Of a stretch of 21,908 bases of DNA, positions 747 to 11,756 are shown piece by piece (position 1 is the stretch's first letter; every line of letters starts with the position of its first letter). Origin of the DNA: Candidatus Diapherotrites archaeon CG10_big_fil_rev_8_21_14_0_10_31_34 (GTDB lineage: Archaea > Iainarchaeota > Iainarchaeia > Iainarchaeales > 1-14-0-10-31-34); contig PFAI01000009.1 of the NCBI GenBank assembly GCA_002763225.1, forward strand, positions 4,228 to 26,135. Direction: 5' to 3'. Under the pieces are notes generated by a model, which was given only the letters and a program-made list of their open reading frames with translations, ran no database searches and had not been told where the DNA came from. The position numbers were made by a program, and so were the translations under genes.

Positions 747-3700
747 ATGGAAAAAGAAAACCAAGAAATTGAAGAAACAGAAGAACCAAGACCAATTGAA
801 GATGAAAGAGTAAAAAAAACAATTGTAAAAGAAGACATTGATATTTTTGATGAAGTGTTTGAAGGAAAAAAAGAAAAACACTCAGAAGAAGAAATAGAAA
901 ACAAAGTAATTCAAAAAGAAGAAACAGAAAAAGAAACAAACGAAGCAGAAGAAGAAATAAAAGGAACAAAAGAAACAGAAAAACTGATTTTAAAGAAAAA
1001 ATCCAGAAAAACCAGTGAAGAAAAAGAAGCAGAAGAAAATGAAGAAACTGAACAAACAGAAGAAGTTCAAGAAGAAAAAACTAAAACAAAAAAATCAAAA
1101 ACTGATTCTCTGACAAAAAAAAAGAAAGAAAAAAAGAAAGCAAAATCAAATTATGAAAAAAAAGAGTTAACAGAAAAAGAAAAAAGTTTGCTTGAAGAAA
1201 CAGAAAACGATGAACTAAATTTAGATGAAATGCCGGAAAGAACTGAAGTAAAAAGAACAATAATGGAAAACGCACTCAAAATGAGTGAAAAAGAATTCGA
1301 TGAATTTGATGAAGAAGAAATTGATGGAATAGAATATTATTCAGGAGACAAAAAATTTACTTTAGCAGAAGAACAGGCAAAAGAAGCAGCAACAATTTCA
1401 GGTTTTGAATTAAGTTTTTTAGAAAACGAGGAAACAGGAAATGCTTTTATTGGAAGAAAAAAAAGTGTTTTTGAAAAATATCAGGAAAAAGCATCATTAT
1501 TTATAGGAAAAGTAGATGAAGAAGAAAAAAACGGAAAAAATATTTTATTGGATTCATTAAATCCTCATGTGGTTTTTGTCTGCGGAGCAAGAGGTTCAGG
1601 AAAATGTGTTACAGGAGATACTTTAATAACATTAGAAAATGGAAAATGCATTGAAATTAAAGAATTGTACAGATACAATGAGCCTGTTTTTGGATTAAAT
1701 GAAAAACTAAAGATTCAGCCATTAAAAAAAGATGAATTCTTTGAAAGAGAAGTAGAAAAAATCCTTCAAGTAAAACTTAGAAGCGGGAAAGAAATTAAAT
1801 TGACTCCAGAACACCCTTTGCTTACAATTAATGGATGGAAACCAATACAAGAATTAAAAGAAAGGGCAAGGATTGCTACGCCAAGAAAAATCCCTGCATT
1901 TGGAAACAAACAGATGAAAGAAAACAAAGTAAAAATATTAGCTTATTTGATAGCTGAAGGCCATTTAGGAAACCAGTTTGTTTTGTTCACAAACGCCGAC
2001 AATAAAATAATGAACGAATTTAAAGAAAGTGTTTATGCATTTGACTCAAACCTGAAAATGCTTCCACACGGGAAATTTTCAGTAAGAGTTTCACAAATAA
2101 AAAAAGAAATGGATTTAAGCAATGTCGTCAGAAATGGGCAAGGGCAATTTACTTCCACAGGATATGTTGTTGCACAAAAAAGTTCTCTGATGAAATGGCT
2201 TGAAGAAATAGAATTATATGAAAAAAGAAGCCACAACAAATTTATTCCAGAAGAAATAATGGAATTAGAAAAAAAGCAAATCAGCATTTTCTTAAACAGA
2301 TTGTTTTCTTGTGACGGAACAATACATAAAATAAACAAAACCACAAACTGGCAAATTTCTGTCTGCACTGTTTCAGAAAAAATGTCAAAACAAATACACC
2401 ATCTATTATTGCGTTTTGGAATTTTATCAAAAATAAGACACAAAAAAACAAAATTTAATGGAAAAATAGGAAATGCATTTGAAATAATAATAAATGCAGA
2501 AAATGCATTAAAATTCATTCAAGAAATAGGTTTTTTTGGGGAAAAAAAAGAAAAACAAAAAATTGCATTAAAAGAAATGAAAGAAAAAAACAGGAACCCA
2601 AATGTTGATACAATCCCAAAAGAAATCTGGAAAGAATTCAAGCCAAAAAACTGGCATCAGATGGGAAGAGATTTTGGTTACAAACAAATAAAATCAATGT
2701 ATAATACAGTCAATTACGCGCCTTCAAGAGAAAAATTAAATAAAATGGCTGAAATTGAAGGAAACAAAAAAGTTCAAGAAATAGCAAACTCTGATATTTT
2801 CTGGGATGAGATAACTGAAATAAAAGAAATAAATGAAAAAACAAAAGTCTATGATATTAGTGTCCCTGAATTCCACAATTTTTTGGCTAATGACATAATA
2901 ATTCACAACTCATATGTTTTAGGAGTGTTAGCAGAAGAACTGGCTTTGAAAAACAAAGACATTGGAATGATTGTAATTGACCCGATTGGAGTATTTTGGT
3001 CAATGAGATTTCCAAACAAAGAACTAAACGAAGTAGCAAAATTAAGTGAATGGAATTTAATGCCTCAGGGACTGGAAAACATTAAAGTGTTTATTCCTGA
3101 AGGAATTAAATCAGAGGTTCCAAAAAACACTTTTGATGCAACTTTTTCAATTCAGCCTTCTCTTTTAACAGCAGAAGACTGGTGTCTGACTTTTGGAATG
3201 GAAAGATTTGGTCCGGCAGGATTGTTATTAAGCAAGGTATTAAAAAAATTAGAGCATGGATTTAAAGCAGAAGGAAAATATATTAAAGCAAAAAAAGGAA
3301 ATTTTTCTTTAAATGAAATAGTTTATTGTCTGGAAAAAGATGAAGAATTAAATTCAAGAGAAAGAGGATATAAACAGGATTCAATTCGTGCATTAGTTTC
3401 AAGACTGGAAGCAGCAAAAAGCTGGGGAATTTTCTCTGAAAAAGGAACTCCTTTAGGAGAATTAAGCAGGGAAAACCAGCTGACTATATTAGACACAAGC
3501 TTTTTGGAAGACGGGGTAACTGCATTAGTAATAGGAATAATTGCAAGAAGATTACTGGCTGCAAGAAAGATTTCAACAAGAAAAGAAGCAGCAAAAAAAT
3601 TCAAGAAAAGCCTGGATGAAATGCTTGAAATGGATATACCTCCTACCTGGCTGTTTATAGATGAAGCACACACTTTAATTCCATCAGGAAATGTAAATAC

Positions 3701-5135
3701 TCCTGCAACCTCTGCTTTAGTTGAATACGTAAAACAAGGAAGACGTCCAGGTTGTTCTTTAGTGTTTGCAACCCAACAGCCTTCAGCAATTGATACAAGA
3801 GTTTTATCCCAATTAGATATTTTGATTTCACATAAACTTGTTTTTGATGATGACATTAAAGCAATCTTCAAAAGAGTTCCTTCAATTGTTCCAGGAAAAT
3901 ACAAGAAAAGCAGTTTTATCAGAACTCTTTCAGTTGGAACAGCATTAGTTGCAGACAGAAGAGAAGAAACTTCAAGAGCATTTGTAATGAATATTCGCCC
4001 AAGAATGTCACAGCATGAAGGAAGAGACGCAGAAACAGCTGAAGCAAAAACCAGCATTTCAGAAAACGATGTATTAAAGTTGTCAGCTGAAATGATTTGG
4101 AGAAAAATACAGGAAGGCCCATTAGAAATGGATAAAGTAAATATTTTAGTTGATTCATTAAACGGAAAATACTCTGCAAAAGTAATGCTTTCATCTGTGT
4201 TAGATGAATTAGAAGAAAGAGGAGCAGTAATTCAGGCAGACAAAATTTTCATTAAAGGAAAAGAATTAATTGAAGAAGAAGAAGAAATGGAAACAGAAGA
4301 AGAAAGATATGAAAAAGAAGTGGAAAAAGGGTTAAGAGAACAGGATGAAATGAAAGAAAAAGGAATAACCGGAACAGGAATAAAAGAAATTGAAGAAACA
4401 GCAAAGCCATTAAAAGAATTAAGTTTAGCAATAAAAATAGATGAAGAAAGTATAAGAAAAATTGCAGACAAAAAAAGAAAGAAAAAAACACTTGGTTTTA
4501 TTGGAAGCGAAGAAAGAATTAAAGGAATAATACTGAATTTTGAGCCAATCTATAAAATAAAAGTAAATGATTTTGACTTGAAAAAAGAATTTGTTTCAGT
4601 TGAATGCTTTGTTAATGGTTTGACAGGAGAATTACTGCATTTTGACGGAAAACAATTCATTGAATCAAAAGGGTTTACTAAAACAAGTTCTTTAACCAAA
4701 GACGAATCACTTGTATTAAGGAATTTACTGCAGAAAAAAATGTTAAAACAAGTACTTGAAAAAAACCCTGAATTATCTGAAGAAAAAGCAAAAAAAATTG
4801 TTTCAAGCCTGGCAGAAAAAGGCTTTCTGAAAAAAGAAAAAAAAGAAGGAAAAATACAATACTCTTTAAATCAGGAAATGGATCTGCCTTCAAGCCTGAG
4901 AATGAAATTGATTAACTCTGTAAGCAATTGTTCTTTCACTGAAAATATGATTAATAATGCAGTAAAAGAAAAGTTTTCAATAGAAGAAATAAACTCAATG
5001 GCAAAAGGGTTATGGTCTAATTCAGTTGTAAAAAAAACAGAAAAAATCTTTCGCCCAGTTTACTACATAACTCTTGAGGATAATGGAAAAGAAAGACTTT
5101 TGAAAATTGACGGAACAACAGGACAGGAAATTTGA
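747..5135 (+). CDS. HerA/DUF87 (FtsK-HerA superfamily) P-loop ATPase, intein-containing, with acidic N-terminal extension and C-terminal wHTH/PepSY-like modules
   Basis: PHVVFVCGARGSGK|S Walker A (split by the intein), IVIDPIG, Walker B LFIDEAH, GRRPGCSLVFATQQPS typical of HerA-like ATPases. About 1027 aa after splicing. Confidence 0.85.
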   Translation: MEKENQEIEETEEPRPIEDERVKKTIVKEDIDIFDEVFEGKKEKHSEEEIENKVIQKEETEKETNEAEEEIKGTKETEKLILKKKSRKTSEEKEAEENEETEQTEEVQEEKTKTKKSKTDSLTKKKKEKKKAKSNYEKKELTEKEKSLLEETENDELNLDEMPERTEVKRTIMENALKMSEKEFDEFDEEEIDGIEYYSGDKKFTLAEEQAKEAATISGFELSFLENEETGNAFIGRKKSVFEKYQEKASLFIGKVDEEEKNGKNILLDSLNPHVVFVCGARGSGKCVTGDTLITLENGKCIEIKELYRYNEPVFGLNEKLKIQPLKKDEFFEREVEKILQVKLRSGKEIKLTPEHPLLTINGWKPIQELKERARIATPRKIPAFGNKQMKENKVKILAYLIAEGHLGNQFVLFTNADNKIMNEFKESVYAFDSNLKMLPHGKFSVRVSQIKKEMDLSNVVRNGQGQFTSTGYVVAQKSSLMKWLEEIELYEKRSHNKFIPEEIMELEKKQISIFLNRLFSCDGTIHKINKTTNWQISVCTVSEKMSKQIHHLLLRFGILSKIRHKKTKFNGKIGNAFEIIINAENALKFIQEIGFFGEKKEKQKIALKEMKEKNRNPNVDTIPKEIWKEFKPKNWHQMGRDFGYKQIKSMYNTVNYAPSREKLNKMAEIEGNKKVQEIANSDIFWDEITEIKEINEKTKVYDISVPEFHNFLANDIIIHNSYVLGVLAEELALKNKDIGMIVIDPIGVFWSMRFPNKELNEVAKLSEWNLMPQGLENIKVFIPEGIKSEVPKNTFDATFSIQPSLLTAEDWCLTFGMERFGPAGLLLSKVLKKLEHGFKAEGKYIKAKKGNFSLNEIVYCLEKDEELNSRERGYKQDSIRALVSRLEAAKSWGIFSEKGTPLGELSRENQLTILDTSFLEDGVTALVIGIIARRLLAARKISTRKEAAKKFKKSLDEMLEMDIPPTWLFIDEAHTLIPSGNVNTPATSALVEYVKQGRRPGCSLVFATQQPSAIDTRVLSQLDILISHKLVFDDDIKAIFKRVPSIVPGKYKKSSFIRTLSVGTALVADRREETSRAFVMNIRPRMSQHEGRDAETAEAKTSISENDVLKLSAEMIWRKIQEGPLEMDKVNILVDSLNGKYSAKVMLSSVLDELEERGAVIQADKIFIKGKELIEEEEEMETEEERYEKEVEKGLREQDEMKEKGITGTGIKEIEETAKPLKELSLAIKIDEESIRKIADKKRKKKTLGFIGSEERIKGIILNFEPIYKIKVNDFDLKKEFVSVECFVNGLTGELLHFDGKQFIESKGFTKTSSLTKDESLVLRNLLQKKMLKQVLEKNPELSEEKAKKIVSSLAEKGFLKKEKKEGKIQYSLNQEMDLPSSLRMKLINSVSNCSFTENMINNAVKEKFSIEEINSMAKGLWSNSVVKKTEKIFRPVYYITLEDNGKERLLKIDGTTGQEI
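1605..2909 (+). mobile_element. Intein with LAGLIDADG homing endonuclease (435 aa, residues 287-721)
   Basis: Block A CVTGDT after GSGK; block B LTPEHPLL; LAGLIDADG motifs ILAYLIAEGH and FLNRLFSCDG; blocks F/G VYDISVPEFHNFLANDIIIHN followed by +1 Ser. Removal restores GARGSGKSY. Confidence 0.95.
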
Positions 5136-5812: not shown

Positions 5813-7483
5813 TTATTTCACTGAATCAATTATTGCTTTAGCCAGTTTTACCGGGTCATGCCTTATTAAGTCAACTTTTTCCCATAAAACTCTTTTTTTA
5901 TCAGGGTCAATTGCTTCAATTAAATCAGTTCGGATTACTTTTGTTGCATTTAATTCGTTTTCATTCAAGTCATCTTTAACCAAAAAAGATTTTTCTTTTT
6001 CATATAAATCTAAAATTCTTTTGTCCGGAACAGTTGAATTCACTAAAACAAAATCAAGGAATTCCAATGGAAGAATTTCATTTAATGCATTCAAATAATC
6101 TGATGCCTTAAAATTTGGTGTCTGGTCAGGCTGGGTAACAATATTTAAAACAAAAACTTTTTTTGCCTTGGTTTTCCTTATTGCATCATTTAAATCGGAA
6201 ATTAAAAGATTTGGGGTAATGCTTGTATAAAAACTTCCAGGAGCCAAAACAACTAAATCTGCTTCTAATACTGCCTGAACTGCTTCAATACATGCTTTTG
6301 GTTCAGGAGACAAAAAAGTTTTCTTAATTTTTTTTCCTGCAAGTCTTACATTAAATTCTCCTTCAGCTTTTGTTCCGTCAACAAATTCAGCACACAAATT
6401 AACATCATCTAAAGTTGAAGGAACAACTTTTCCTTTGATTGCAAGAATTTTTGATACCTGCTTTAAAGCTAACTCAAAACTTCCTTCAAGCTTGGTTAAA
6501 GCTGCAATAAAAAGATTACCAAAAGAATGACCGTTTAATTCACTTTCACCAGAAAAACGGTATTGAAAAAGTTTTTTCATTAATTCTTCTGAATCACTTA
6601 AAGCCACAAGACAGTTTCTGATATCTCCTGGAGGAAGAATATGCAGTTCTTTTCTGATTTTTCCTGAACTCCTTCCGGAATCCATTACAGTTACAATTGC
6701 AGTAAGATTTGAAGTATAATTTTTTAAGCCATTCAAAAGAATTGGAAGACCTGTTCCGCCTCCAATTGCAACAATTTTTTGTTTTGATCCATTAGCTTTT
6801 TTTTCAAGAGAATTAATTGCATCAAATAAATCAGAGATTTTGTTGATCGAATAATCTGGTTCCTCTAAAATGTTTTTTGGCTTGACTTCAGAAAACCTTC
6901 CATGCAATAATCTGACTGAATTCATTCCAAGCATATTAGCTATCCTTATTTCTGAATGAATTCTGTCGCCGACAGAAACAACTTCTTTTGGCTTTAAATT
7001 AAATCTTTTTAACACTTCCGTGAAAAAATCTTCTTTTTCAGGGCCAGTCTCAACATCATGAATAAAGATTTCATCAAACAAATATTCAATTTTTAATAAT
7101 TCAATTTTTTTTTGCTGTCTTTTGGTTATTCCAGAAGTAACTAAAATTAATTTAATTTTTTTTTCTTTTAATGTTTCTAACAATTCTTTTGCTCCGGAAA
7201 ACAAATGAATTTCTTCAACTAAATCAGAATTATATGCTTCCAATGCTTTTTTTACTATTTCATCTTTATTTTTTTCTGAATATTTCTCAGAAATAATTTG
7301 AAAAACATTTGAAGTGGGATTTAATTCATTTAATTTTTTTTGTTCTTCAATTAATTCGTTTTCTGAAAGAGTTATTCCTGCTTTAACCATTGCTTTTGCT
7401 GCACGCTTTCTTGCATTATTTACCAAAAGGCCTGTACAGTCAAATAAAGTGTCATCCAAATCAAATATTACTGCTTTAATCAT
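5813..7483 (-). CDS. Fusion of HAD-superfamily hydrolase (subfamily IA) and YvcK/GlmR (UPF0052, CofD-related) domain
   Basis: N-half: IFDLDDTL, VTSG, VGDRIHSEI. C-half: IVAIGGGTGL, VTVMDSGRSSG, LPPGDIRNCLVALS, GHSFGNL, PGSFYTSITPNLL, IRHDP. One continuous frame. Likely start ATG 7483 (alternative GTG 7492). Confidence 0.9.
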   Translation of the reverse strand: MIKAVIFDLDDTLFDCTGLLVNNARKRAAKAMVKAGITLSENELIEEQKKLNELNPTSNVFQIISEKYSEKNKDEIVKKALEAYNSDLVEEIHLFSGAKELLETLKEKKIKLILVTSGITKRQQKKIELLKIEYLFDEIFIHDVETGPEKEDFFTEVLKRFNLKPKEVVSVGDRIHSEIRIANMLGMNSVRLLHGRFSEVKPKNILEEPDYSINKISDLFDAINSLEKKANGSKQKIVAIGGGTGLPILLNGLKNYTSNLTAIVTVMDSGRSSGKIRKELHILPPGDIRNCLVALSDSEELMKKLFQYRFSGESELNGHSFGNLFIAALTKLEGSFELALKQVSKILAIKGKVVPSTLDDVNLCAEFVDGTKAEGEFNVRLAGKKIKKTFLSPEPKACIEAVQAVLEADLVVLAPGSFYTSITPNLLISDLNDAIRKTKAKKVFVLNIVTQPDQTPNFKASDYLNALNEILPLEFLDFVLVNSTVPDKRILDLYEKEKSFLVKDDLNENELNATKVIRTDLIEAIDPDKKRVLWEKVDLIRHDPVKLAKAIIDSVK

Positions 7484-7517
7484 TTCAACCACACAATTTA
7501 AGCAAATTCATTTTCCA

Positions 7518-7994
7518 TCACTTGAAAAACTTGCTCATCACCAATTCATTTTTGTTATCATAATAATGGTTTTTTAATAATGCATCTTTTTCTAAACCCA
7601 TTTTAGTGTAAAAAGAAATTGCTCTTTCATTGTCTTCATGAGTAAACAAAAAAAGTTTTCTAAGCTTTTCTTTTTTAGAAGAAAAAAATTCTTTTGCTTC
7701 TGATTCAACAAAATCAAATAATTTTTTTGCAATTCCTTTTCCTCTGAATTCTTTTGAAACTGCAATTCTGTCTAATTCAATTAAACCATGCCTTGGCAGT
7801 CCTTTCATTGCCCAGGAAACCAAACCAATTACTTTCCCCTGGCTTTCGGCAACAATAAAACTCCAGCCTTTAGCTGTTTCATTCCTGAAAACTTGAATTC
7901 CTTCTTCAACTGATTTAATGCTATAGCCTTGCTCTAAAACTTTTCCAATTCCTTGTGAATCTTTTTCCTCTGCTTTCCTTAGATTTATTTGCAT
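7518..7994 (-). CDS. GNAT family N-acetyltransferase
   Basis: Acetyl-CoA motif IAVSKEFRGKGIAKKL, NERAISFYTKMG, and a RimI-like tail HYYDNKNELVM. Confidence 0.9.
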   Translation of the reverse strand: MQINLRKAEEKDSQGIGKVLEQGYSIKSVEEGIQVFRNETAKGWSFIVAESQGKVIGLVSWAMKGLPRHGLIELDRIAVSKEFRGKGIAKKLFDFVESEAKEFFSSKKEKLRKLFLFTHEDNERAISFYTKMGLEKDALLKNHYYDNKNELVMSKFFK

Positions 7995-8019
7995 TTAAAT
8001 CACTTAATTAATTATTTTA

Positions 8020-8208
8020 CTAACTAACTTCTTTTATAAGTTCTTTTAAAAAAAGTTGAGTTTGTCTTCCTTTTTTTGTTAATTTAAAATTCTCGCTCAG
8101 TAAATTGCTTTCTTTCAGTTCTGCTTTTATCCAGCCTGAAGTTGTTGGTTGTTTTCCCAACAAAAATTTTACTGTTCCTGTGTCACTCAATCTTTCAACA
8201 AAAACTTT
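8020..8208 (-). pseudogene. Possible winged-helix gene remnant or small ORF
   Basis: Open frame KVFVERLSDTGTVKFLLGKQPTTSGWIKAELKESNLLSENFKLTKKGRQTQLFLKELIKEVS*. The only start is TTG 8190. FKLTKKG resembles a wHTH wing. Confidence 0.35.
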
Positions 8209-8251
8209 TTAATTTAATGGTATGGCTATTTACTTGATTTCTAGGCAGGTC

Positions 8252-10012
8252 TTATTTGACAGTGCAAACTTTTGCAAGATTTCTTGGCTTGTCAGGGTTT
8301 CTCTCCAAAAAGACTGCAGTATGAAATGCAAGCAACTGCAAAGGAGGAATTAAAATTAAAGGAAACAAAAGCTCTTTAACTTTAGGTATTTTAATAAAAA
8401 AATCAAATACTGGGTTTTCTTCATCTCCTATTCCAACAATAAATGCTCCACGAGATTTTGCTTCAATTGCATTATTAATTGTGTCAGAAAAAACTGAGTC
8501 TTTTGGCGCAACAACAATAACTGGAACTCCATCTGAAATCAAAGCTAAAGGGCCGTGCTTTAAGCTTCCGGCAGGAAAAGCTTCTGCATGAATATAAGAA
8601 ATTTCTTTCAGTTTTAATGCAGCTTCCAATGCAAGAGGATAATTCAGGCTTCTTCCAATAAAATAAACATCTTTAACTGACTTGAATTTTTCTGAAAGAA
8701 ATTTAATTGAATTTTTGTTTAATTCAATTGACTGCTGCATTTTCAAGAAAACTTTTTTTAGTTCAGTTAAAGCTGAATCAAATTTTCCTGCACAGGAACT
8801 TGCAAGCAAATACAATAAAGCTATCTGAGAAGTAAAAGCCTTGGTTGAAGCAACACCAATTTCTTCACCGCAATTCAAATAAATTACTTTATCGCTTGCT
8901 CTTGCAAGAGAAGAATTAAACACATTAACCATTGAAACAATTTTGAATCCCTTCTTTTTTGCTTTCTTCACTGAATCCAATACGTCTGCAGTTTCCCCGC
9001 TCTGAGATAAAGCAAAAATCAAAGAATTTTTTGGAAGAAAATCCACTTGATAAGGGAATTCAGATGCATCAATTACCTGAGGAAAAATTCCAGATATTCT
9101 GGAAAAAAATTCTTTTCCAAACAACGAAGCATTAAAAGAAGTGCCGTTAGCAATAAAAAAAACACTTGAATTTTTCATCATCAAAAAAATTTCATTAAAA
9201 ATTTTTTTTTCCTGCTCCAAGGCATTCCTTAAAACAAAAGGCTGTTCCATTATTTCTTTTAACATGAAATGAGAATACTTTAGTTTTCCTGAAGAAGTTA
9301 CATCAGATTTAACTTTAAGGATTTTTCTTTCAACTTTATTTAAATCAAAATCAAAGCACTGAAACTTGTTTTTTGAAATTAAAGCAATGTCTTTGTCTTC
9401 CAAAAAAACAAATTTATCAGTAAAAGAACTCAAAGGAATCTGGTCTGAAGCCGCAAAAATTCCTTTATCAGAGATTCCCAAAAGCAAAGGGCTTTCATTT
9501 TTAACTGCAATCAGTTTATCTGGTTCATCCGAAGAAAAAACCAGTAAAGAAAAACTTCCTTTTAAAACAGAAACAGATTTTGAAACAGAATGCAATAAAT
9601 CCATTCCTTTAGATAAATTTTCTTCAATTAAATGCAATACTACTTCAGAATCAGTTTCAGAACAAAAATTATGGCTGCAAAGCTCTTTTTTCAGTTCAGA
9701 AAAATTTTCTATTATGCCGTTATGAACCAAAGTAAGCTTGTTGCCGGCAGAAACATGAGGATGGGCATTAACTTCATTAATTTTTCCATGAGTAGCCCAG
9801 CGGGTATGGCCTATTGCTAAACCGGATTTAATTTCCTGAATTTTTTTTGGGATACCATTTATTTCTCCCACAGCTTTAAAAAAAGTAATTTTTTTGCCAG
9901 AAAGAAAAGCAACTCCCCAAGAATCATATCCACGGTATTCAAGTTTTTTTAATGCACCAGTAATTATTTTTCCTTTAATTGGTTCTCCTATGAAGCCGAC
10001 TATCCCGCACAT
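8252..10012 (-). CDS. glmS: Glutamine--fructose-6-phosphate transaminase (isomerizing)
   Basis: GTG start, MCGIVG (catalytic Cys1), LEYRGYDS, GHTRWATHG, HNGIIEN, SQSGETAD, VASTKAF, ALKLKEISYIHAE, DKPRNLAKVCTV. Confidence 0.98.
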   Translation of the reverse strand: MCGIVGFIGEPIKGKIITGALKKLEYRGYDSWGVAFLSGKKITFFKAVGEINGIPKKIQEIKSGLAIGHTRWATHGKINEVNAHPHVSAGNKLTLVHNGIIENFSELKKELCSHNFCSETDSEVVLHLIEENLSKGMDLLHSVSKSVSVLKGSFSLLVFSSDEPDKLIAVKNESPLLLGISDKGIFAASDQIPLSSFTDKFVFLEDKDIALISKNKFQCFDFDLNKVERKILKVKSDVTSSGKLKYSHFMLKEIMEQPFVLRNALEQEKKIFNEIFLMMKNSSVFFIANGTSFNASLFGKEFFSRISGIFPQVIDASEFPYQVDFLPKNSLIFALSQSGETADVLDSVKKAKKKGFKIVSMVNVFNSSLARASDKVIYLNCGEEIGVASTKAFTSQIALLYLLASSCAGKFDSALTELKKVFLKMQQSIELNKNSIKFLSEKFKSVKDVYFIGRSLNYPLALEAALKLKEISYIHAEAFPAGSLKHGPLALISDGVPVIVVAPKDSVFSDTINNAIEAKSRGAFIVGIGDEENPVFDFFIKIPKVKELLFPLILIPPLQLLAFHTAVFLERNPDKPRNLAKVCTVK

Positions 10013-10160: not shown

Positions 10161-11069
10161 ATGGAAGAAAAAATTTTTGATGATCCGGAAAAATTAAAGC
10201 CATTGCTTTCCAAAACCGGCTGGAAAATTTTTCAGTTATTGAATGAAAAAGCTTATTATTCTGCAGAAATAGCAAAAAAGCTGGGATTGCATGAACAAAA
10301 AGTGTATTATTACATTAATCAGCTGAAAAAAAATAATTTGATTGAAGTTGAAAGAACTGAAGAAAAGTTTGGGGCACTAGCCAAATACTTTAAAGCAAAA
10401 TTTAATGCAGTTTCTTTGATTGCAGGAGAAGAAAAAAGAAAAGAATTTGAGGTAAGCGGAAAAGAAAAAAAACTGGATAAAAAACTGGAAGAATTTTTTT
10501 CTCCGTTTATTGAGAAAGGAAAATTTAATGCAAAAATTGTTGTTGGGTCCCCTGACCCTCACGGAAGCTTTAAGGCAAGGGCAAGAGATGCTTTTCTGGC
10601 AGTGGAATTAAGCGCTTTTTTTGGTTCTCTTTCAAAAGAATTAAGGTATCCAATAGTTTTTTTGGATACAGAAATTGATTCACTGAAAAACGAGAACAGC
10701 AATTTGATTGTGATTGGAGGGATTTTAACTAATACTTTAACTAAAACAGTTAACTCTAAACTGAATGCAGGATTTATTCCTTTTGGGGGGAGATGGATTA
10801 TTCAGTCAAAAGCATCAAAAAAAGAGTTTAACGAAGATGCAGTTGGTTTTATTGAAGTAATAAGGCATCCTTTTTTTGCCAGAAAAAAAATTATGGTTAT
10901 TGCAGGAAACAGAAATGCCGGAACAAAAGCAGCAATAATTGCATTGGTCAGGCATTCAAATGAAATAGCTAAACCAAACTTTTTTAACGAAAAACTCCAG
11001 TCAAAAATAGTTGAAGGAATTGACTTGGACGGAGACGGCAAAATAGATAATGCTGAAATAAAAGAATAA
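10161..11069 (+). CDS. ArsR-like wHTH transcriptional regulator with C-terminal alpha/beta domain (S-layer-C-like) and DxDxDG motif
   Basis: YSAEIAKKLGLHEQKVYYYINQLKKNNLIEV HTH; IVVGSPDPHG; NLIVIGG..TN; IMVIAG; DLDGDGKID at the end. Divergent from glmS. Confidence 0.75.
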   Translation: MEEKIFDDPEKLKPLLSKTGWKIFQLLNEKAYYSAEIAKKLGLHEQKVYYYINQLKKNNLIEVERTEEKFGALAKYFKAKFNAVSLIAGEEKRKEFEVSGKEKKLDKKLEEFFSPFIEKGKFNAKIVVGSPDPHGSFKARARDAFLAVELSAFFGSLSKELRYPIVFLDTEIDSLKNENSNLIVIGGILTNTLTKTVNSKLNAGFIPFGGRWIIQSKASKKEFNEDAVGFIEVIRHPFFARKKIMVIAGNRNAGTKAAIIALVRHSNEIAKPNFFNEKLQSKIVEGIDLDGDGKIDNAEIKE

Positions 11070-11437: not shown

Positions 11438-11477
11438 AAATCAAAAAACGCATAGCTGATTTGGGTGAGTGAAAAAA

Positions 11478-11756
11478 ATGGAATTAAGCGAATTTACTGC
11501 TAAAAGCTGTATGAGTAAGACAGCATGCGAGTTTCTGCCTAAAAAAAAAACTGAATTAAATTTAGAGAAAGTAGCTGAAAGCTTAAGAAAAAATGAAGTA
11601 TTGGTTGATATTGAAACGCCTTTTGTTTTGATTTTAAAGTTCAAAGGAAAAAACATTTCTTTATTCAAAAGCGGAAAAATAATAATAAAAGAAACTCCGG
11701 AAGAAAAAGAAGCAAAAAAAATCGCTGAAGCTTTAATGAAAAAAATTGAAGAATAA
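11478..11756 (+). CDS. Small conserved alpha/beta protein resembling the C-terminal domain of long ThiF/MoeB proteins
   Basis: LNLEKVAESL...TPFVLIL...ISLFKSGKIIIK...EEKEAKKIAE pattern. ATG 11478 follows GTGA-A6 (the ORF track starts at GTG 11469). Confidence 0.5.
   Translation: MELSEFTAKSCMSKTACEFLPKKKTELNLEKVAESLRKNEVLVDIETPFVLILKFKGKNISLFKSGKIIIKETPEEKEAKKIAEALMKKIEE

What the first reader, a model, noticed from the sequence alone, without database searches (positions are those of the whole stretch)
5813..10012. glmS + GNAT + HAD::GlmR fusion: candidate GlmM/GlmU-independent route to UDP-GlcNAc
Seen: three co-oriented genes, glmS, a GNAT and a HAD-YvcK/GlmR fusion. The GNAT and the fusion are only about 30 bp apart, and no glmM or glmU is in the window. 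Established: GlmS makes GlcN-6-P. The eukaryotic pathway then uses a GNAT (Gna1), a mutase and a uridyltransferase. Firmicute GlmR/YvcK binds UDP-GlcNAc, modulates GlmS and has been reported to uridylate GlcNAc-1-P. Some HAD enzymes are sugar phosphomutases (beta-PGM, PMM). Inference: the four domains map onto the four steps Fru-6-P > GlcN-6-P > GlcNAc-6-P > GlcNAc-1-P > UDP-GlcNAc, giving a compact alternative amino-sugar module. Caveats: the GNAT has a RimI-like tail, the HAD looks like a subfamily IA phosphatase, and glmS is 257 bp from the GNAT.
Basis: partly seen in the sequence, partly recalled or inferred. Interest (0 to 1): 0.8.

Follow-up and report, generated by a model that had tools for sequence, protein, structure and literature searches.

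The report
Variant archaeal UDP-GlcNAc operon, swapped enzymes
A tiny-genome archaeon keeps glmS, a small acetyltransferase and a HAD::YvcK fusion exactly where its relatives keep glmS, glmM and the GlmU acetyltransferase half, which points to a differently built route to the essential sugar donor UDP-GlcNAc and offers a way to test what YvcK/GlmR proteins do.

Summary
glmS (8252-10012), a 158-aa GNAT (7518-7994) and a 559-aa HAD::YvcK fusion (5813-7492) lie co-oriented on the minus strand.

Relatives carry one of two cassettes between the same flanks (HTH gene, HerA): glmS-glmM-LbH acetyltransferase, or glmS-GNAT-HAD::YvcK. In 215 genomes of the phylum, YvcK occurs in 48, bacterial-type GlmM in 57, and both in 0.

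In four relatives the GNAT slot holds a true GNA1-family enzyme (glucosamine-6-P N-acetyltransferase). The window's RimI/SpeG-like GNAT is therefore very probably its functional analogue, giving a eukaryote-order route.

Not supported:
- The HAD domain resembles sugar-phosphate phosphatases (PH1655, NANP), not beta-phosphoglucomutase.
- The genome keeps one phosphohexomutase paralogue that scores close to the archaeal GlmM cut-off.
- It also keeps stand-alone nucleotidyltransferases.
- 26 of the 48 YvcK genomes have no glmS.

The fusion belongs to the GlcNAc-phosphate/UDP-GlcNAc branch, but its chemistry remains open: mutase plus uridyltransferase, uridyltransferase plus phosphohydrolase, or sensor plus valve.

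I found no paper on this operon. Earlier notes of this scan describe the same theme in other genomes.

The parts
8252..10012 (-). glmS, glutamine--fructose-6-phosphate aminotransferase (586 aa)
   Evidence: TIGR01135 659.1 bits against a cut-off of 418; two SIS domains plus GATase. Belongs to GlmS 'type 2' in the tree.
7995..8251 (-). 257-bp spacer between glmS and the GNAT, specific to this genome
   Evidence: Relatives have 5-30 bp here. There is no other copy in the genome, and its 56-codon ORF is not conserved. AT-rich stretch just before the GNAT start; a possible internal promoter is inference only.
7518..7994 (-). GNAT acetyltransferase (158 aa), candidate glucosamine-6-phosphate N-acetyltransferase. 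Not a GNA1-family member.
   Evidence: PF00583 61.1 bits; RimI 51.1, below its cut-off of 86.4. AF2 model pLDDT 95.6. Nearest structures are uncharacterised GNATs, RimI, SpeG, PaiA and Ard1. Orthologues occur only in fusion genomes, 12 of 215. The slot is filled by GNA1-family genes in 4 relatives.
6818..7492 (-). HAD domain of the fusion (about residues 1-225)
   Evidence: PF13419 and PF00702. D11, D13, T15, G175 and D176 are invariant in 13 fusion proteins. Nearest solved proteins: PH1655 160.8 bits, NANP about 80, beta-PGM about 35.
5813..6784 (-). YvcK/GlmR (CofD-fold) domain of the fusion (about residues 237-559)
   Evidence: TIGR01826 345.9 bits against a cut-off of 196. 247 bits to B. 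halodurans YvcK, PDB 2o2z. D271, N428, Y497 and R544 align with D38, N196, Y265 and R301 of that protein; S272 stands in place of D39.
10161..11069 (+). Divergent HTH plus S-layer-like-domain gene (302 aa): conserved upstream flank and candidate regulator
   Evidence: PF05124 55.1 bits; weak TrmB/HTH matches. Lies divergent to glmS in both cassette types.
747..5135 (+). HerA-like ATPase with an intein: conserved downstream flank, convergent. A boundary marker, not part of the pathway.
   Evidence: Pfam intein, LAGLIDADG and HerA_C. Follows the fusion in group A and the LbH gene in group B.

Best explanation
The three genes are an operon for a variant, eukaryote-order route to UDP-GlcNAc in a DPANN-type archaeon.

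Proposed steps:
- GlmS makes GlcN-6-P (shown by family membership).
- The GNAT acetylates GlcN-6-P to GlcNAc-6-P. This is inferred: it occupies the slot that true GNA1-family genes occupy in sister genomes, and it tracks glmS.
- HAD::YvcK acts on the branch from GlcNAc-phosphate to UDP-GlcNAc. Together with the GNAT it stands in the place that glmM plus the LbH (GlmU-C) acetyltransferase hold in relatives.

Most likely division of labour:
- The YvcK domain binds UDP-GlcNAc and/or uridylylates GlcNAc-1-P, as reported for Firmicute GlmR.
- The catalytically intact HAD domain handles a sugar phosphate or PPi.
- The single remaining phosphohexomutase paralogue and the stand-alone NTP transferases may share the mutase and uridylyl steps.

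Sub-claims and my odds:
- GNAT is the GlcN-6-P acetyltransferase: about 0.7.
- The fusion has a catalytic role between GlcNAc-6-P and UDP-GlcNAc: about 0.45.
- Exact mapping, HAD = mutase and YvcK = uridyltransferase: about 0.2.
For: Cassette swap at one chromosomal place:
- Group A reads HTH - glmS - GNAT - HAD::YvcK - HerA.
- Group B reads HTH - glmS - glmM - LbH - HerA. GlmM scores 553-617 bits against a cut-off of 447.55.
- HerA lies within 2 kb after LbH in 10 of 13 group-B loci, and the HTH gene lies upstream in 6 of 13.

Counts over 215 genomes of the phylum:
- glmS in 107, GlmM in 57, YvcK in 48.
- glmS with GlmM in 56; glmS with YvcK in 22; GlmM with YvcK in 0.
- Within family f20, 21 of 23 genomes have YvcK. 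The single GlmM genome (G086, glmS-glmM-LbH) lacks it.

The LbH half of archaeal GlmU is found in 14 of 41 relatives and full-length GlmU in 2, none of them fusion genomes.

The linkage is more than inherited order:
- The cluster sits on two deeply split GlmS types; the context label needs at least 2 changes on well-supported branches.
- G088 has the order fusion-glmS-GNAT.
- The GNAT slot alternates between the window type and the GNA1 family inside both f1 and f20. G085's slot gene hits GNA1 structures at E 1.6e-18 to 7e-10.

Of the 22 genomes with glmS and YvcK:
- 15 examined plus 2 judged by coordinates have glmS-GNAT-fusion.
- G212 has glmS-HAD-GlmU-YvcK.
- 2 are not adjacent and 2 are split by assembly.

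Other lineages also join YvcK, with or without HAD, to pathway genes:
- yvcK-HAD-phosphohexomutase in L054 and yvcK-phosphohexomutase-IMPase in G029.
- yvcK-phosphohexomutase-glmS in L099.
- yvcK-HAD-NTP/LbH in L206 and yvcK-glmS in L192, L196 and L200.

Residues of the YvcK domain: D271, N428, Y497 and R544 are invariant and align with D38, N196, Y265 and R301 of B. halodurans YvcK. The equivalents are the residues needed for uridyltransferase activity and UDP-GlcNAc binding in GlmR (passages read in PMC10128056 and PMC13046274).

The organism needs UDP-GlcNAc-derived sugars: it has a PseC-type aminotransferase next to a NeuD/PglB-type acetyltransferase.
Against: - The window GNAT is not a GNA1 by sequence or fold. 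No GNA1 appears at E <= 0.01 or among the rows listed.
- Only 12 of 215 genomes carry this GNAT type.
- The HAD domain is nearest to phosphatases; beta-PGM is far.
- A phosphohexomutase paralogue is present in 19 of the 22 glmS+YvcK genomes and could be the GlcNAc-phosphate mutase.
- NTP transferases are present.
- 26 of the 48 YvcK genomes have no glmS. 29 glmS genomes have neither GlmM nor YvcK. The fusion is therefore neither strictly coupled to glmS nor the only alternative to GlmM.
- The second Asp mutated in the catalytic mutants of GlmR (D39) is Ser/Thr/Ala in this family.
- Fusion-HerA adjacency is also conserved without any obvious functional reason, so this group keeps gene order well.
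- Related genomes are not independent. The number of separate swap events may be as low as two or three.
- In bacteria YvcK and GlmM coexist (G216).
- Bacterial HAD::YvcK fusions are not next to glmS (L177).
Confidence: 0.55

Rival explanations
1. Sensor-and-valve or regulator reading. The pathway enzymes are GlmS, the GNAT, the phosphohexomutase paralogue and a stand-alone NTP transferase. HAD::YvcK is not a pathway enzyme. Its YvcK domain senses UDP-GlcNAc and may activate GlmS as B. subtilis GlmR does. Its HAD domain is a sugar-phosphate phosphatase that drains excess GlcN-6-P or GlcNAc-6-P.
For: - The UDP-GlcNAc-binding residues Y497 and R544 are invariant (residue roles from passages in PMC10128056 and PMC13046274).
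- The HAD domain is nearest to sugar-phosphate phosphatases, including N-acylneuraminate-9-phosphatase.
- D39 of the proposed catalytic pair is not kept.
- The phosphohexomutase paralogue and NTP transferases are present.
- GlmR-GlmS stimulation is reported for B. subtilis (PMC7525490 and PMC6171935: search listing and start of abstract only).
Against: - 26 of the 48 YvcK genomes have no glmS to regulate.
- A mere regulator would not be expected to exclude GlmM completely (0 of 215 with both) or to sit in the glmM-LbH cassette position.
- Group B manages without any YvcK.
- L. monocytogenes GlmR did not bind its GlmS (passage in PMC10128056).
Confidence: 0.28
2. HAD is an N-acetylhexosamine phosphomutase (GlcNAc-6-P to GlcNAc-1-P), and the fused YvcK domain is the uridylyltransferase. 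The three genes then carry all four steps.
For: - The cassette GNAT + fusion replaces glmM + LbH, which together convert GlcN-6-P to GlcNAc-1-P.
- In G212 a HAD gene sits between glmS and glmU, where glmM normally sits, with yvcK after it and no GlmM in the genome.
- The fusion persists in genomes without glmS, and in some with no phosphohexomutase found: G217, where it lies beside a GT2/chitin-synthase-like gene, and G144.
- Uridyltransferase activity is published for GlmR (PMC10128056: abstract and passages).
- HAD and YvcK are joined in both orders, or are adjacent genes.
Against: - The HAD is phosphatase-like. Beta-PGM scores only about 35 bits, and TIGR01990 scores 41.6 against a cut-off of 189.
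- From my own knowledge, the only known C1-cap HAD mutase makes the beta anomer, whereas UDP-GlcNAc needs alpha.
- Phosphohexomutase genes lie next to yvcK-HAD in L054 and next to yvcK in G029 and L099. That fits better with YvcK working after a classical mutase.
- D39 is not kept.
- 19 of 22 glmS+YvcK genomes keep a phosphohexomutase.
Confidence: 0.2
3. Hitch-hiking. The adjacency is inherited gene order without shared function. The GNAT is a protein or polyamine acetyltransferase, for example one that acetylates the YvcK domain, and the fusion does something unrelated to hexosamines.
For: - The GNAT resembles RimI, SpeG and Ard1.
- Gene order is generally well kept here; fusion-HerA is conserved too.
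- B. subtilis GlmR is lysine-acetylated (passage in PMC13046274).
Against: - GNA1-family genes in the same slot.
- Permuted order in G088 and two GlmS types.
- The GNAT follows glmS, not the fusion: 11 fusion loci without glmS have no GNAT, with L186 the one exception.
- Repeated, independent YvcK links to pathway genes in other lineages.
Confidence: 0.07

Closest known systems
Eukaryotic hexosamine pathway (GFA1 - GNA1 - AGM1 - UAP1)
   Same: Order of steps: acetylation at the 6-phosphate stage by a GNAT-fold enzyme directly after GlmS/GFA1. Sister genomes carry true GNA1-family genes in this very slot.
   Different: The window's GNAT is not a GNA1-family member. No UAP1/UDPGP-family match was returned in the genome, but that search also found nothing in any control genome, so it is uninformative. 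A HAD::YvcK fusion has no counterpart in the eukaryotic pathway.
Bacterial/archaeal GlmS-GlmM-GlmU route, here present in relatives as the operon glmS-glmM-LbH half
   Same: Same glmS, same chromosomal place and flanks, same end product expected.
   Different: No bacterial-type GlmM (207.8 bits against a cut-off of 447.55) and no LbH GlmU half in this genome or in any fusion genome searched. GNAT + HAD::YvcK stand in their place.
Firmicute GlmR/YvcK (B. subtilis, L. monocytogenes; CuvA in mycobacteria)
   Same: Family membership: TIGR01826 345.9 bits, and 247 bits to PDB 2o2z. The residues equivalent to D38, N196, Y265 and R301 are kept. Link to UDP-GlcNAc synthesis.
   Different: - Fused to a HAD domain.
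- D39 is replaced.
- No yvcJ/whiA operon context.
- Excludes GlmM in this phylum, whereas Firmicutes have both.
- Present in many genomes without glmS.
Alternative bacterial UDP-GlcNAc routes with split or missing GlmU (NagU preprint, bioRxiv 10.64898/2026.06.23.733835)
   Same: Same idea that GlmU halves are dispensable or replaced. The preprint (abstract and section 15 read) notes species with only the GlmU N-terminal half and an 'unidentified acetyltransferase'.
   Different: - That work concerns a UAP-like uridyltransferase in bacteria.
- It names neither a GNAT nor HAD::YvcK.
- Its supplements were not seen.
HAD-IA phosphatases PH1655 (2hoq), N-acylneuraminate-9-phosphatase and TM1254; beta-phosphoglucomutase
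   Same: Fold and catalytic motifs. The nearest solved relatives are phosphatases, one of which acts on an N-acetylated amino-sugar phosphate.
   Different: PH1655 is uncharacterised. Beta-PGM, the only mutase of this cap type (my own knowledge), is distant. None of these proteins is fused to YvcK.

Membership tests
GlmS (TIGR01135) | Score over the curated cut-off; N-terminal Cys amidotransferase domain plus two SIS domains | tested here: met
   659.1 bits against a cut-off of 418; two SIS stretches; GATase_6; starts MCGIVG.
GNA1 (glucosamine-6-phosphate N-acetyltransferase family) | Sequence or fold closest to solved GNA1 enzymes | tested here: not met
   The window GNAT has no GNA1 chain at E <= 0.01 and none among the rows listed by Foldseek. 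As a control, the slot gene of G085 hits GNA1 chains at 1.6e-18 to 7e-10.
GNAT superfamily | GNAT fold with the acetyl-CoA loop (R/Q-x-x-G-x-G/A) | tested here: met
   PF00583 61.1 bits. F-R-G-K-G-I-A at residues 82-88, with G85 and G87 invariant. Model pLDDT 95.6.
RimI (TIGR01575) | Score over the curated cut-off | tested here: not met
   51.1 bits against a cut-off of 86.4.
YvcK/GlmR (TIGR01826) | Score over the curated cut-off | tested here: met
   345.9 bits against a cut-off of 196, residues 240-556.
YvcK/GlmR (TIGR01826) | Residues whose mutation removes uridyltransferase activity (Bs D38 D39; Lm D40 D41 N198) | tested here: inconclusive
   D271 and N428 are kept and invariant. The second Asp is S272, and Ser/Thr/Ala across the fusion family. 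Residue roles come from passages in PMC10128056 and PMC13046274.
YvcK/GlmR (TIGR01826) | UDP-GlcNAc-binding residues (Bs Y265, R301) | tested here: met
   Y497 and R544 align with Y265 and R301 of 2o2z and are invariant in 13 fusion proteins.
CofD proper (TIGR01819, F420 synthesis) | Score over the curated cut-off | tested here: not met
   27 bits against a cut-off of 257.
HAD superfamily | Catalytic motifs: DxD nucleophile/acid, Thr/Ser, acidic motif IV | tested here: met
   D11, D13, T15, G175 and D176 are invariant in 13 fusion proteins. Motif II (TSG at 119-121) was read from the alignment. The motif III Lys/Arg near residue 150 is assigned only tentatively.
beta-phosphoglucomutase (TIGR01990) | Score over the curated cut-off; nearest solved relatives are beta-PGM | tested here: not met
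   41.6 bits against a cut-off of 189.4. In the profile search beta-PGM scores about 35 bits, against PH1655 at 160.8 and NANP at about 80.
GlmM in the genome (TIGR01455 / TIGR03990) | A gene over either curated cut-off | tested here: not met
   The single phosphohexomutase (contig C7) scores glmM 207.8 against 447.55, Arch_GlmM 397.2 against 439 and PgmG 477.9 against 600. The assembly is 81% complete, but five same-genus genomes (90-96% complete) give the same result.
GlmU in the genome (TIGR03992 / TIGR01173) | NTP-transferase domain joined to, or accompanied by, the LbH acetyltransferase domain | tested here: not met
   Only N-half-like NTP transferases: best Arch_glmU 167.2 bits, model positions 2-177. 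The only hexapeptide protein is NeuD/PglB-like.

The most novel reading that the evidence does not exclude
HAD::YvcK is a bifunctional enzyme that takes GlcNAc-6-P all the way to UDP-GlcNAc. A HAD-type N-acetylhexosamine phosphomutase, or a phosphatase-based bypass of the mutase step, would be fused to a CofD-fold uridylyltransferase. With GlmS and a non-GNA1 GNAT this would give a complete route independent of GlmM and GlmU. It would also show that catalysis, not regulation, is the ancestral job of the YvcK/GlmR family.
Probability: 0.2. Interest if true: 0.9.

Novelty: new variant of a known kind. Interest (0 to 1): 0.72.

Why it matters
UDP-GlcNAc is the entry point to cell-envelope glycans in all domains of life, and the GlmS-GlmM-GlmU route is usually taken as the prokaryotic rule.

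Here the two genes after glmS have been exchanged at one chromosomal position, and the two versions never co-occur in 215 genomes. This gives three things:
- A candidate for a new GlcN-6-P acetyltransferase family.
- Evidence for a eukaryote-order pathway in archaea, including true GNA1 homologues.
- A direct, testable handle on the disputed biochemical role of YvcK/GlmR (regulator or uridyltransferase) and of its recurrent HAD partner.

It also bears on how host-dependent DPANN cells obtain envelope precursors, because many keep the fusion but have no glmS.

Tried and rejected
- Wider YvcK context. Of 80 genome loci with up to 7 kb of flank, only 1 had glmS nearby. YvcK-glmS adjacency is therefore not general.
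- A 301-genome scan of the phylum of G216 gave about 420-aa YvcK without HAD in 284 of 301 genomes. It was costly and did not help with the fusion question.
- The metagenome scan aimed at planctomycete-type fusions returned only four long fusion-type loci: L177, L178 and L186 full-length, and L206 split into adjacent yvcK and HAD genes. L177 and L178 have no glmS or GNAT beside them.
- Search for GNAT fusions to longer proteins: none found, which is weak evidence. The GNAT family found by the word-based search is small, 25 proteins.
- HAD as pyrophosphatase. Soluble PPase (PF00719) was not found in G000 or in five relatives of both groups. Membrane H+-PPase is present in four of five genomes, again from both groups. 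Neither discriminates between the groups.
- UDPGP/UAP family in the own genome: no match, but the control genomes gave none either, so the result is uninformative.
- The 257-bp spacer is not repeated and its small ORF is not conserved.
Whether they bind stays open.
- One family scan failed on wrong coordinates. The question was settled with an ORF list and pairwise comparison.
- PMC9829697 (passages read) had nothing on archaeal GNA1.

Full report
**Observation**

The window (G000 contig C25, 30% G+C; assembly 1.04 Mb, 81% complete) carries three co-oriented minus-strand genes.
- glmS, 8252-10012: TIGR01135 659 bits.
- A 158-aa GNAT, 7518-7994: PF00583 61 bits; RimI only 51 bits against a cut-off of 86.
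- A 559-aa fusion, 5813-7492. It joins a HAD domain (residues 4-225) to a YvcK/GlmR domain (residues 240-556: TIGR01826 346 bits against a cut-off of 196; true CofD 27 bits).

The gaps are 257 bp (glmS to GNAT) and 25 bp (GNAT to fusion). None of the other 13 larger ORFs scanned is a GlmM or a GlmU.

**The rest of the genome**

- There is one CofD-family gene, which is the fusion.
- There is one phosphohexomutase, on contig C7. It scores PgmG 478 against 600, Arch_GlmM 397 against 439 and bacterial glmM 208 against 448.
- There are three sugar-1-phosphate NTP transferases without an LbH domain, one of them GalU, plus an IspD-like gene.
- The only hexapeptide protein is NeuD/PglB-like and lies beside a PseC-type aminotransferase.
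- No GNA1-type GNAT is present: best tblastn E 0.11.

**Relatives: two cassettes at one place**

Among 41 relatives, 11 carry the full-length fusion. Ten of these show HTH - glmS - GNAT - fusion - HerA.

The other glmS-bearing relatives show the tight operon glmS - glmM - LbH. GlmM scores 553-617 bits against a cut-off of 447.55, and the LbH protein matches positions 217-393 of archaeal GlmU.

That operon lies between the same flanks. HerA is convergent within 2 kb after LbH in 10 of 13 loci, and the HTH gene is divergent upstream in 6 of 13. The two genes after glmS have therefore been exchanged in place.

**Counts in a 215-genome sample of the phylum**

| Feature | Genomes |
|---|---|
| glmS | 107 |
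| YvcK | 48 |
| bacterial-type GlmM | 57 |
| window-type GNAT | 12 |
| any phosphohexomutase | 125 |

- 56 of the 57 GlmM genomes have glmS.
- 22 genomes have glmS and YvcK.
- 29 have glmS with neither GlmM nor YvcK (18 of them in family f2).
- No genome has both GlmM and YvcK.
- In family f20, 21 of 23 genomes have YvcK. The one GlmM genome (G086, glmS-glmM-LbH) lacks it, and its GlmS groups with f20-type GlmS (that branch has support 86, below the strong-support mark).
- GlmM genomes mostly have two phosphohexomutases. 19 of the 22 glmS+YvcK genomes have one (G095 shows two fragmentary matches), and 3 incomplete ones have none detected.

Kin are not independent, so these counts overstate the number of separate events.

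**More than inherited order**

- The cluster sits on two deeply split GlmS types: family f1 on one, families f20 and f9 on the other. The context label needs at least two changes on strongly supported branches.
- G088 has the order fusion - glmS - GNAT.
- The GNAT slot alternates between two unrelated GNAT types inside both f1 and f20.
  - The window type is found in G000-G005, G007, G016, G027, G084, G088 and G103.
  - A GNA1-family type is found in G008, G082, G085 and G097.
  - The G085 gene hits solved glucosamine-6-phosphate N-acetyltransferases at E 1.6e-18 to 7e-10. The G008 and G082 genes are 56% identical to it, and the G097 gene aligns with it.
- Either GNAT type is found beside the fusion only where glmS is present. 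Eleven fusion loci without glmS have none. The one exception, L186, keeps a 41-residue glmS remnant.

This is the strongest argument that the window GNAT acetylates GlcN-6-P. By sequence and fold it is RimI/SpeG/Ard1-like, not GNA1.

**The fusion**

The family is large. Of the 120 best hits listed, 119 carry both HAD and CofD domains. Records are named from DPANN archaea and from Planctomycetota/Brocadiia at about 50% identity.

HAD and YvcK also occur in the reverse order or as adjacent genes (L054, G144, L206).

YvcK, with or without HAD, recurs beside pathway genes in other lineages:
- A phosphohexomutase in L054, G029 and L099.
- GlmU-like genes in L206 and G212.
- glmS in L192, L196, L200 and L099.
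- In G212 the order is glmS - HAD - GlmU - YvcK, in a genome where GlmM was not found.

The HAD motifs are intact. The domain profile is closest to PH1655 (160.8 bits), N-acylneuraminate-9-phosphatase (about 80) and phosphoglycolate phosphatase (71). Beta-PGM reaches only about 35 bits.

The YvcK domain keeps D271, N428, Y497 and R544. These align with D38, N196, Y265 and R301 of B. halodurans YvcK. S272 stands in place of D39.

According to passages read in PMC10128056 and PMC13046274:
- D38/D39 (Lm D40/D41) and N198 are needed for the reported GlcNAc-1-P uridyltransferase activity.
- Y265 and R301 are needed for UDP-GlcNAc binding.
- Almost nothing is known about archaeal homologues.

26 of the 48 YvcK genomes have no glmS. 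For some no phosphohexomutase was found either (G217, G144, family f31). In bacteria YvcK and GlmM coexist (G216), and a planctomycete-type fusion locus has no glmS nearby (L177).

**Reading**

- Shown: a conserved operon, an in-place alternative to glmM-LbH, GNA1 homologues in the GNAT slot, and a catalytically intact HAD fused to a YvcK with conserved ligand residues.
- Inferred: GlmS, then the GNAT (making GlcNAc-6-P), then the branch served by HAD::YvcK.
- Still open: which protein moves the phosphate and which adds UMP. The kept phosphohexomutase paralogue and the NTP transferases are the conservative candidates. The cassette logic, G212, and the persistence of the fusion without glmS favour a catalytic role for the fusion. 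The phosphatase-like HAD and the lost D39 favour a sensor/valve or auxiliary role.
- My odds: variant operon as stated 0.55; regulator/valve 0.28; full four-step mapping 0.2 (this overlaps the first); hitch-hiking 0.07.

**Known work**

Six searches found no paper on this operon, on a HAD-YvcK fusion, or on GNA1-order synthesis in DPANN:
- GlmR/uridyltransferase/UDP-GlcNAc.
- YvcK/archaea/GlmS.
- DPANN/UDP-N-acetylglucosamine/GlmS.
- GNA1/archaea.
- YvcK/haloacid dehalogenase.
- Woesearchaeota/N-acetylglucosamine/phosphoglucosamine mutase.

The NagU preprint (abstract and section 15 read) notes bacteria with only the GlmU N-terminal half and an unidentified acetyltransferase. Its supplements were not seen.

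Earlier notes of this scan describe the same theme in other genomes: glmS-GNAT-HAD::YvcK operons in DPANN, a YvcK::phosphohexomutase fusion, and a HAD::GNAT fusion. I treated them as leads. My cassette, count and GNA1 results were obtained independently here.

**Verdict**

This is a real and conserved new variant of the UDP-GlcNAc pathway. It is unproven, and partly contradicted, for the mutase and uridyltransferase assignments.

Noticed in passing
window 747-5135 (+): The HerA-like ATPase carries an intein with a LAGLIDADG domain (about residues 288-721). In most relatives the match skips these residues, so the intein is absent there. It appears to be present in G007, G087 and G097.
   Followed up: partly
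window 7995-8251: The 257-bp spacer between glmS and the GNAT is unique to this genome; relatives have 5-30 bp. It holds an unconserved 56-codon ORF and an AT-rich stretch before the GNAT start.
   Followed up: yes
window 10161-11069 (+): A gene with an HTH plus an S-layer-like C-terminal domain lies divergent to glmS in both cassette types and even in another order (G212). It is a candidate regulator of the hexosamine operon.
   Followed up: partly
window 11469-11756 (+): A 95-aa ORF with a weak single TBP-repeat match (PF00352, 25.6 bits), conserved in same-genus genomes. It looks like a half-size TBP-like protein.
   Followed up: no
L186:5269-5412: On a 533-kb metagenome contig only about 41 N-terminal residues of glmS remain between the HTH gene and an intact GNAT-fusion pair. 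This looks like a recent loss of glmS.
   Followed up: partly
G009, G040 and other family f2 genomes: 18 of 22 genomes of family f2 have a high-scoring glmS but no GlmM and no YvcK. Most also lack a phosphohexomutase (found in 6 of 22). In G009, a single contig 94% complete, no NTP transferase was found either. What they do with GlcN-6-P is unexplained.
   Followed up: no
L144:9122-9811 (G039): A beta-PGM-family HAD (TIGR02009 146.7 bits against a cut-off of 153) sits between glmS and glmM in a genome that also has full-length archaeal GlmU. This is another HAD inside a hexosamine operon.
   Followed up: no
G003:C70:9727-11400 (L011/L044): In this same-genus genome the fusion gene has one in-frame TAA. 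A public 367-aa protein with only the CofD domain, on a contig of the same length, may correspond to it (P0013). The gene may be split or broken.
   Followed up: no
own genome C7 (L002:544-1911 and 1956-2957): The single phosphohexomutase paralogue lies divergent to a GalT-like hexose-1-phosphate uridylyltransferase (TIGR00209 103.8 bits against a cut-off of 102.1).
   Followed up: no
L053:4899-6143 (G217): In a Woesearchaeota genome where neither glmS nor a phosphohexomutase was found, a family-2 glycosyltransferase with chitin-synthase similarity lies about 850 bp from the fusion on the opposite strand, with an ScpB gene between them.
   Followed up: partly
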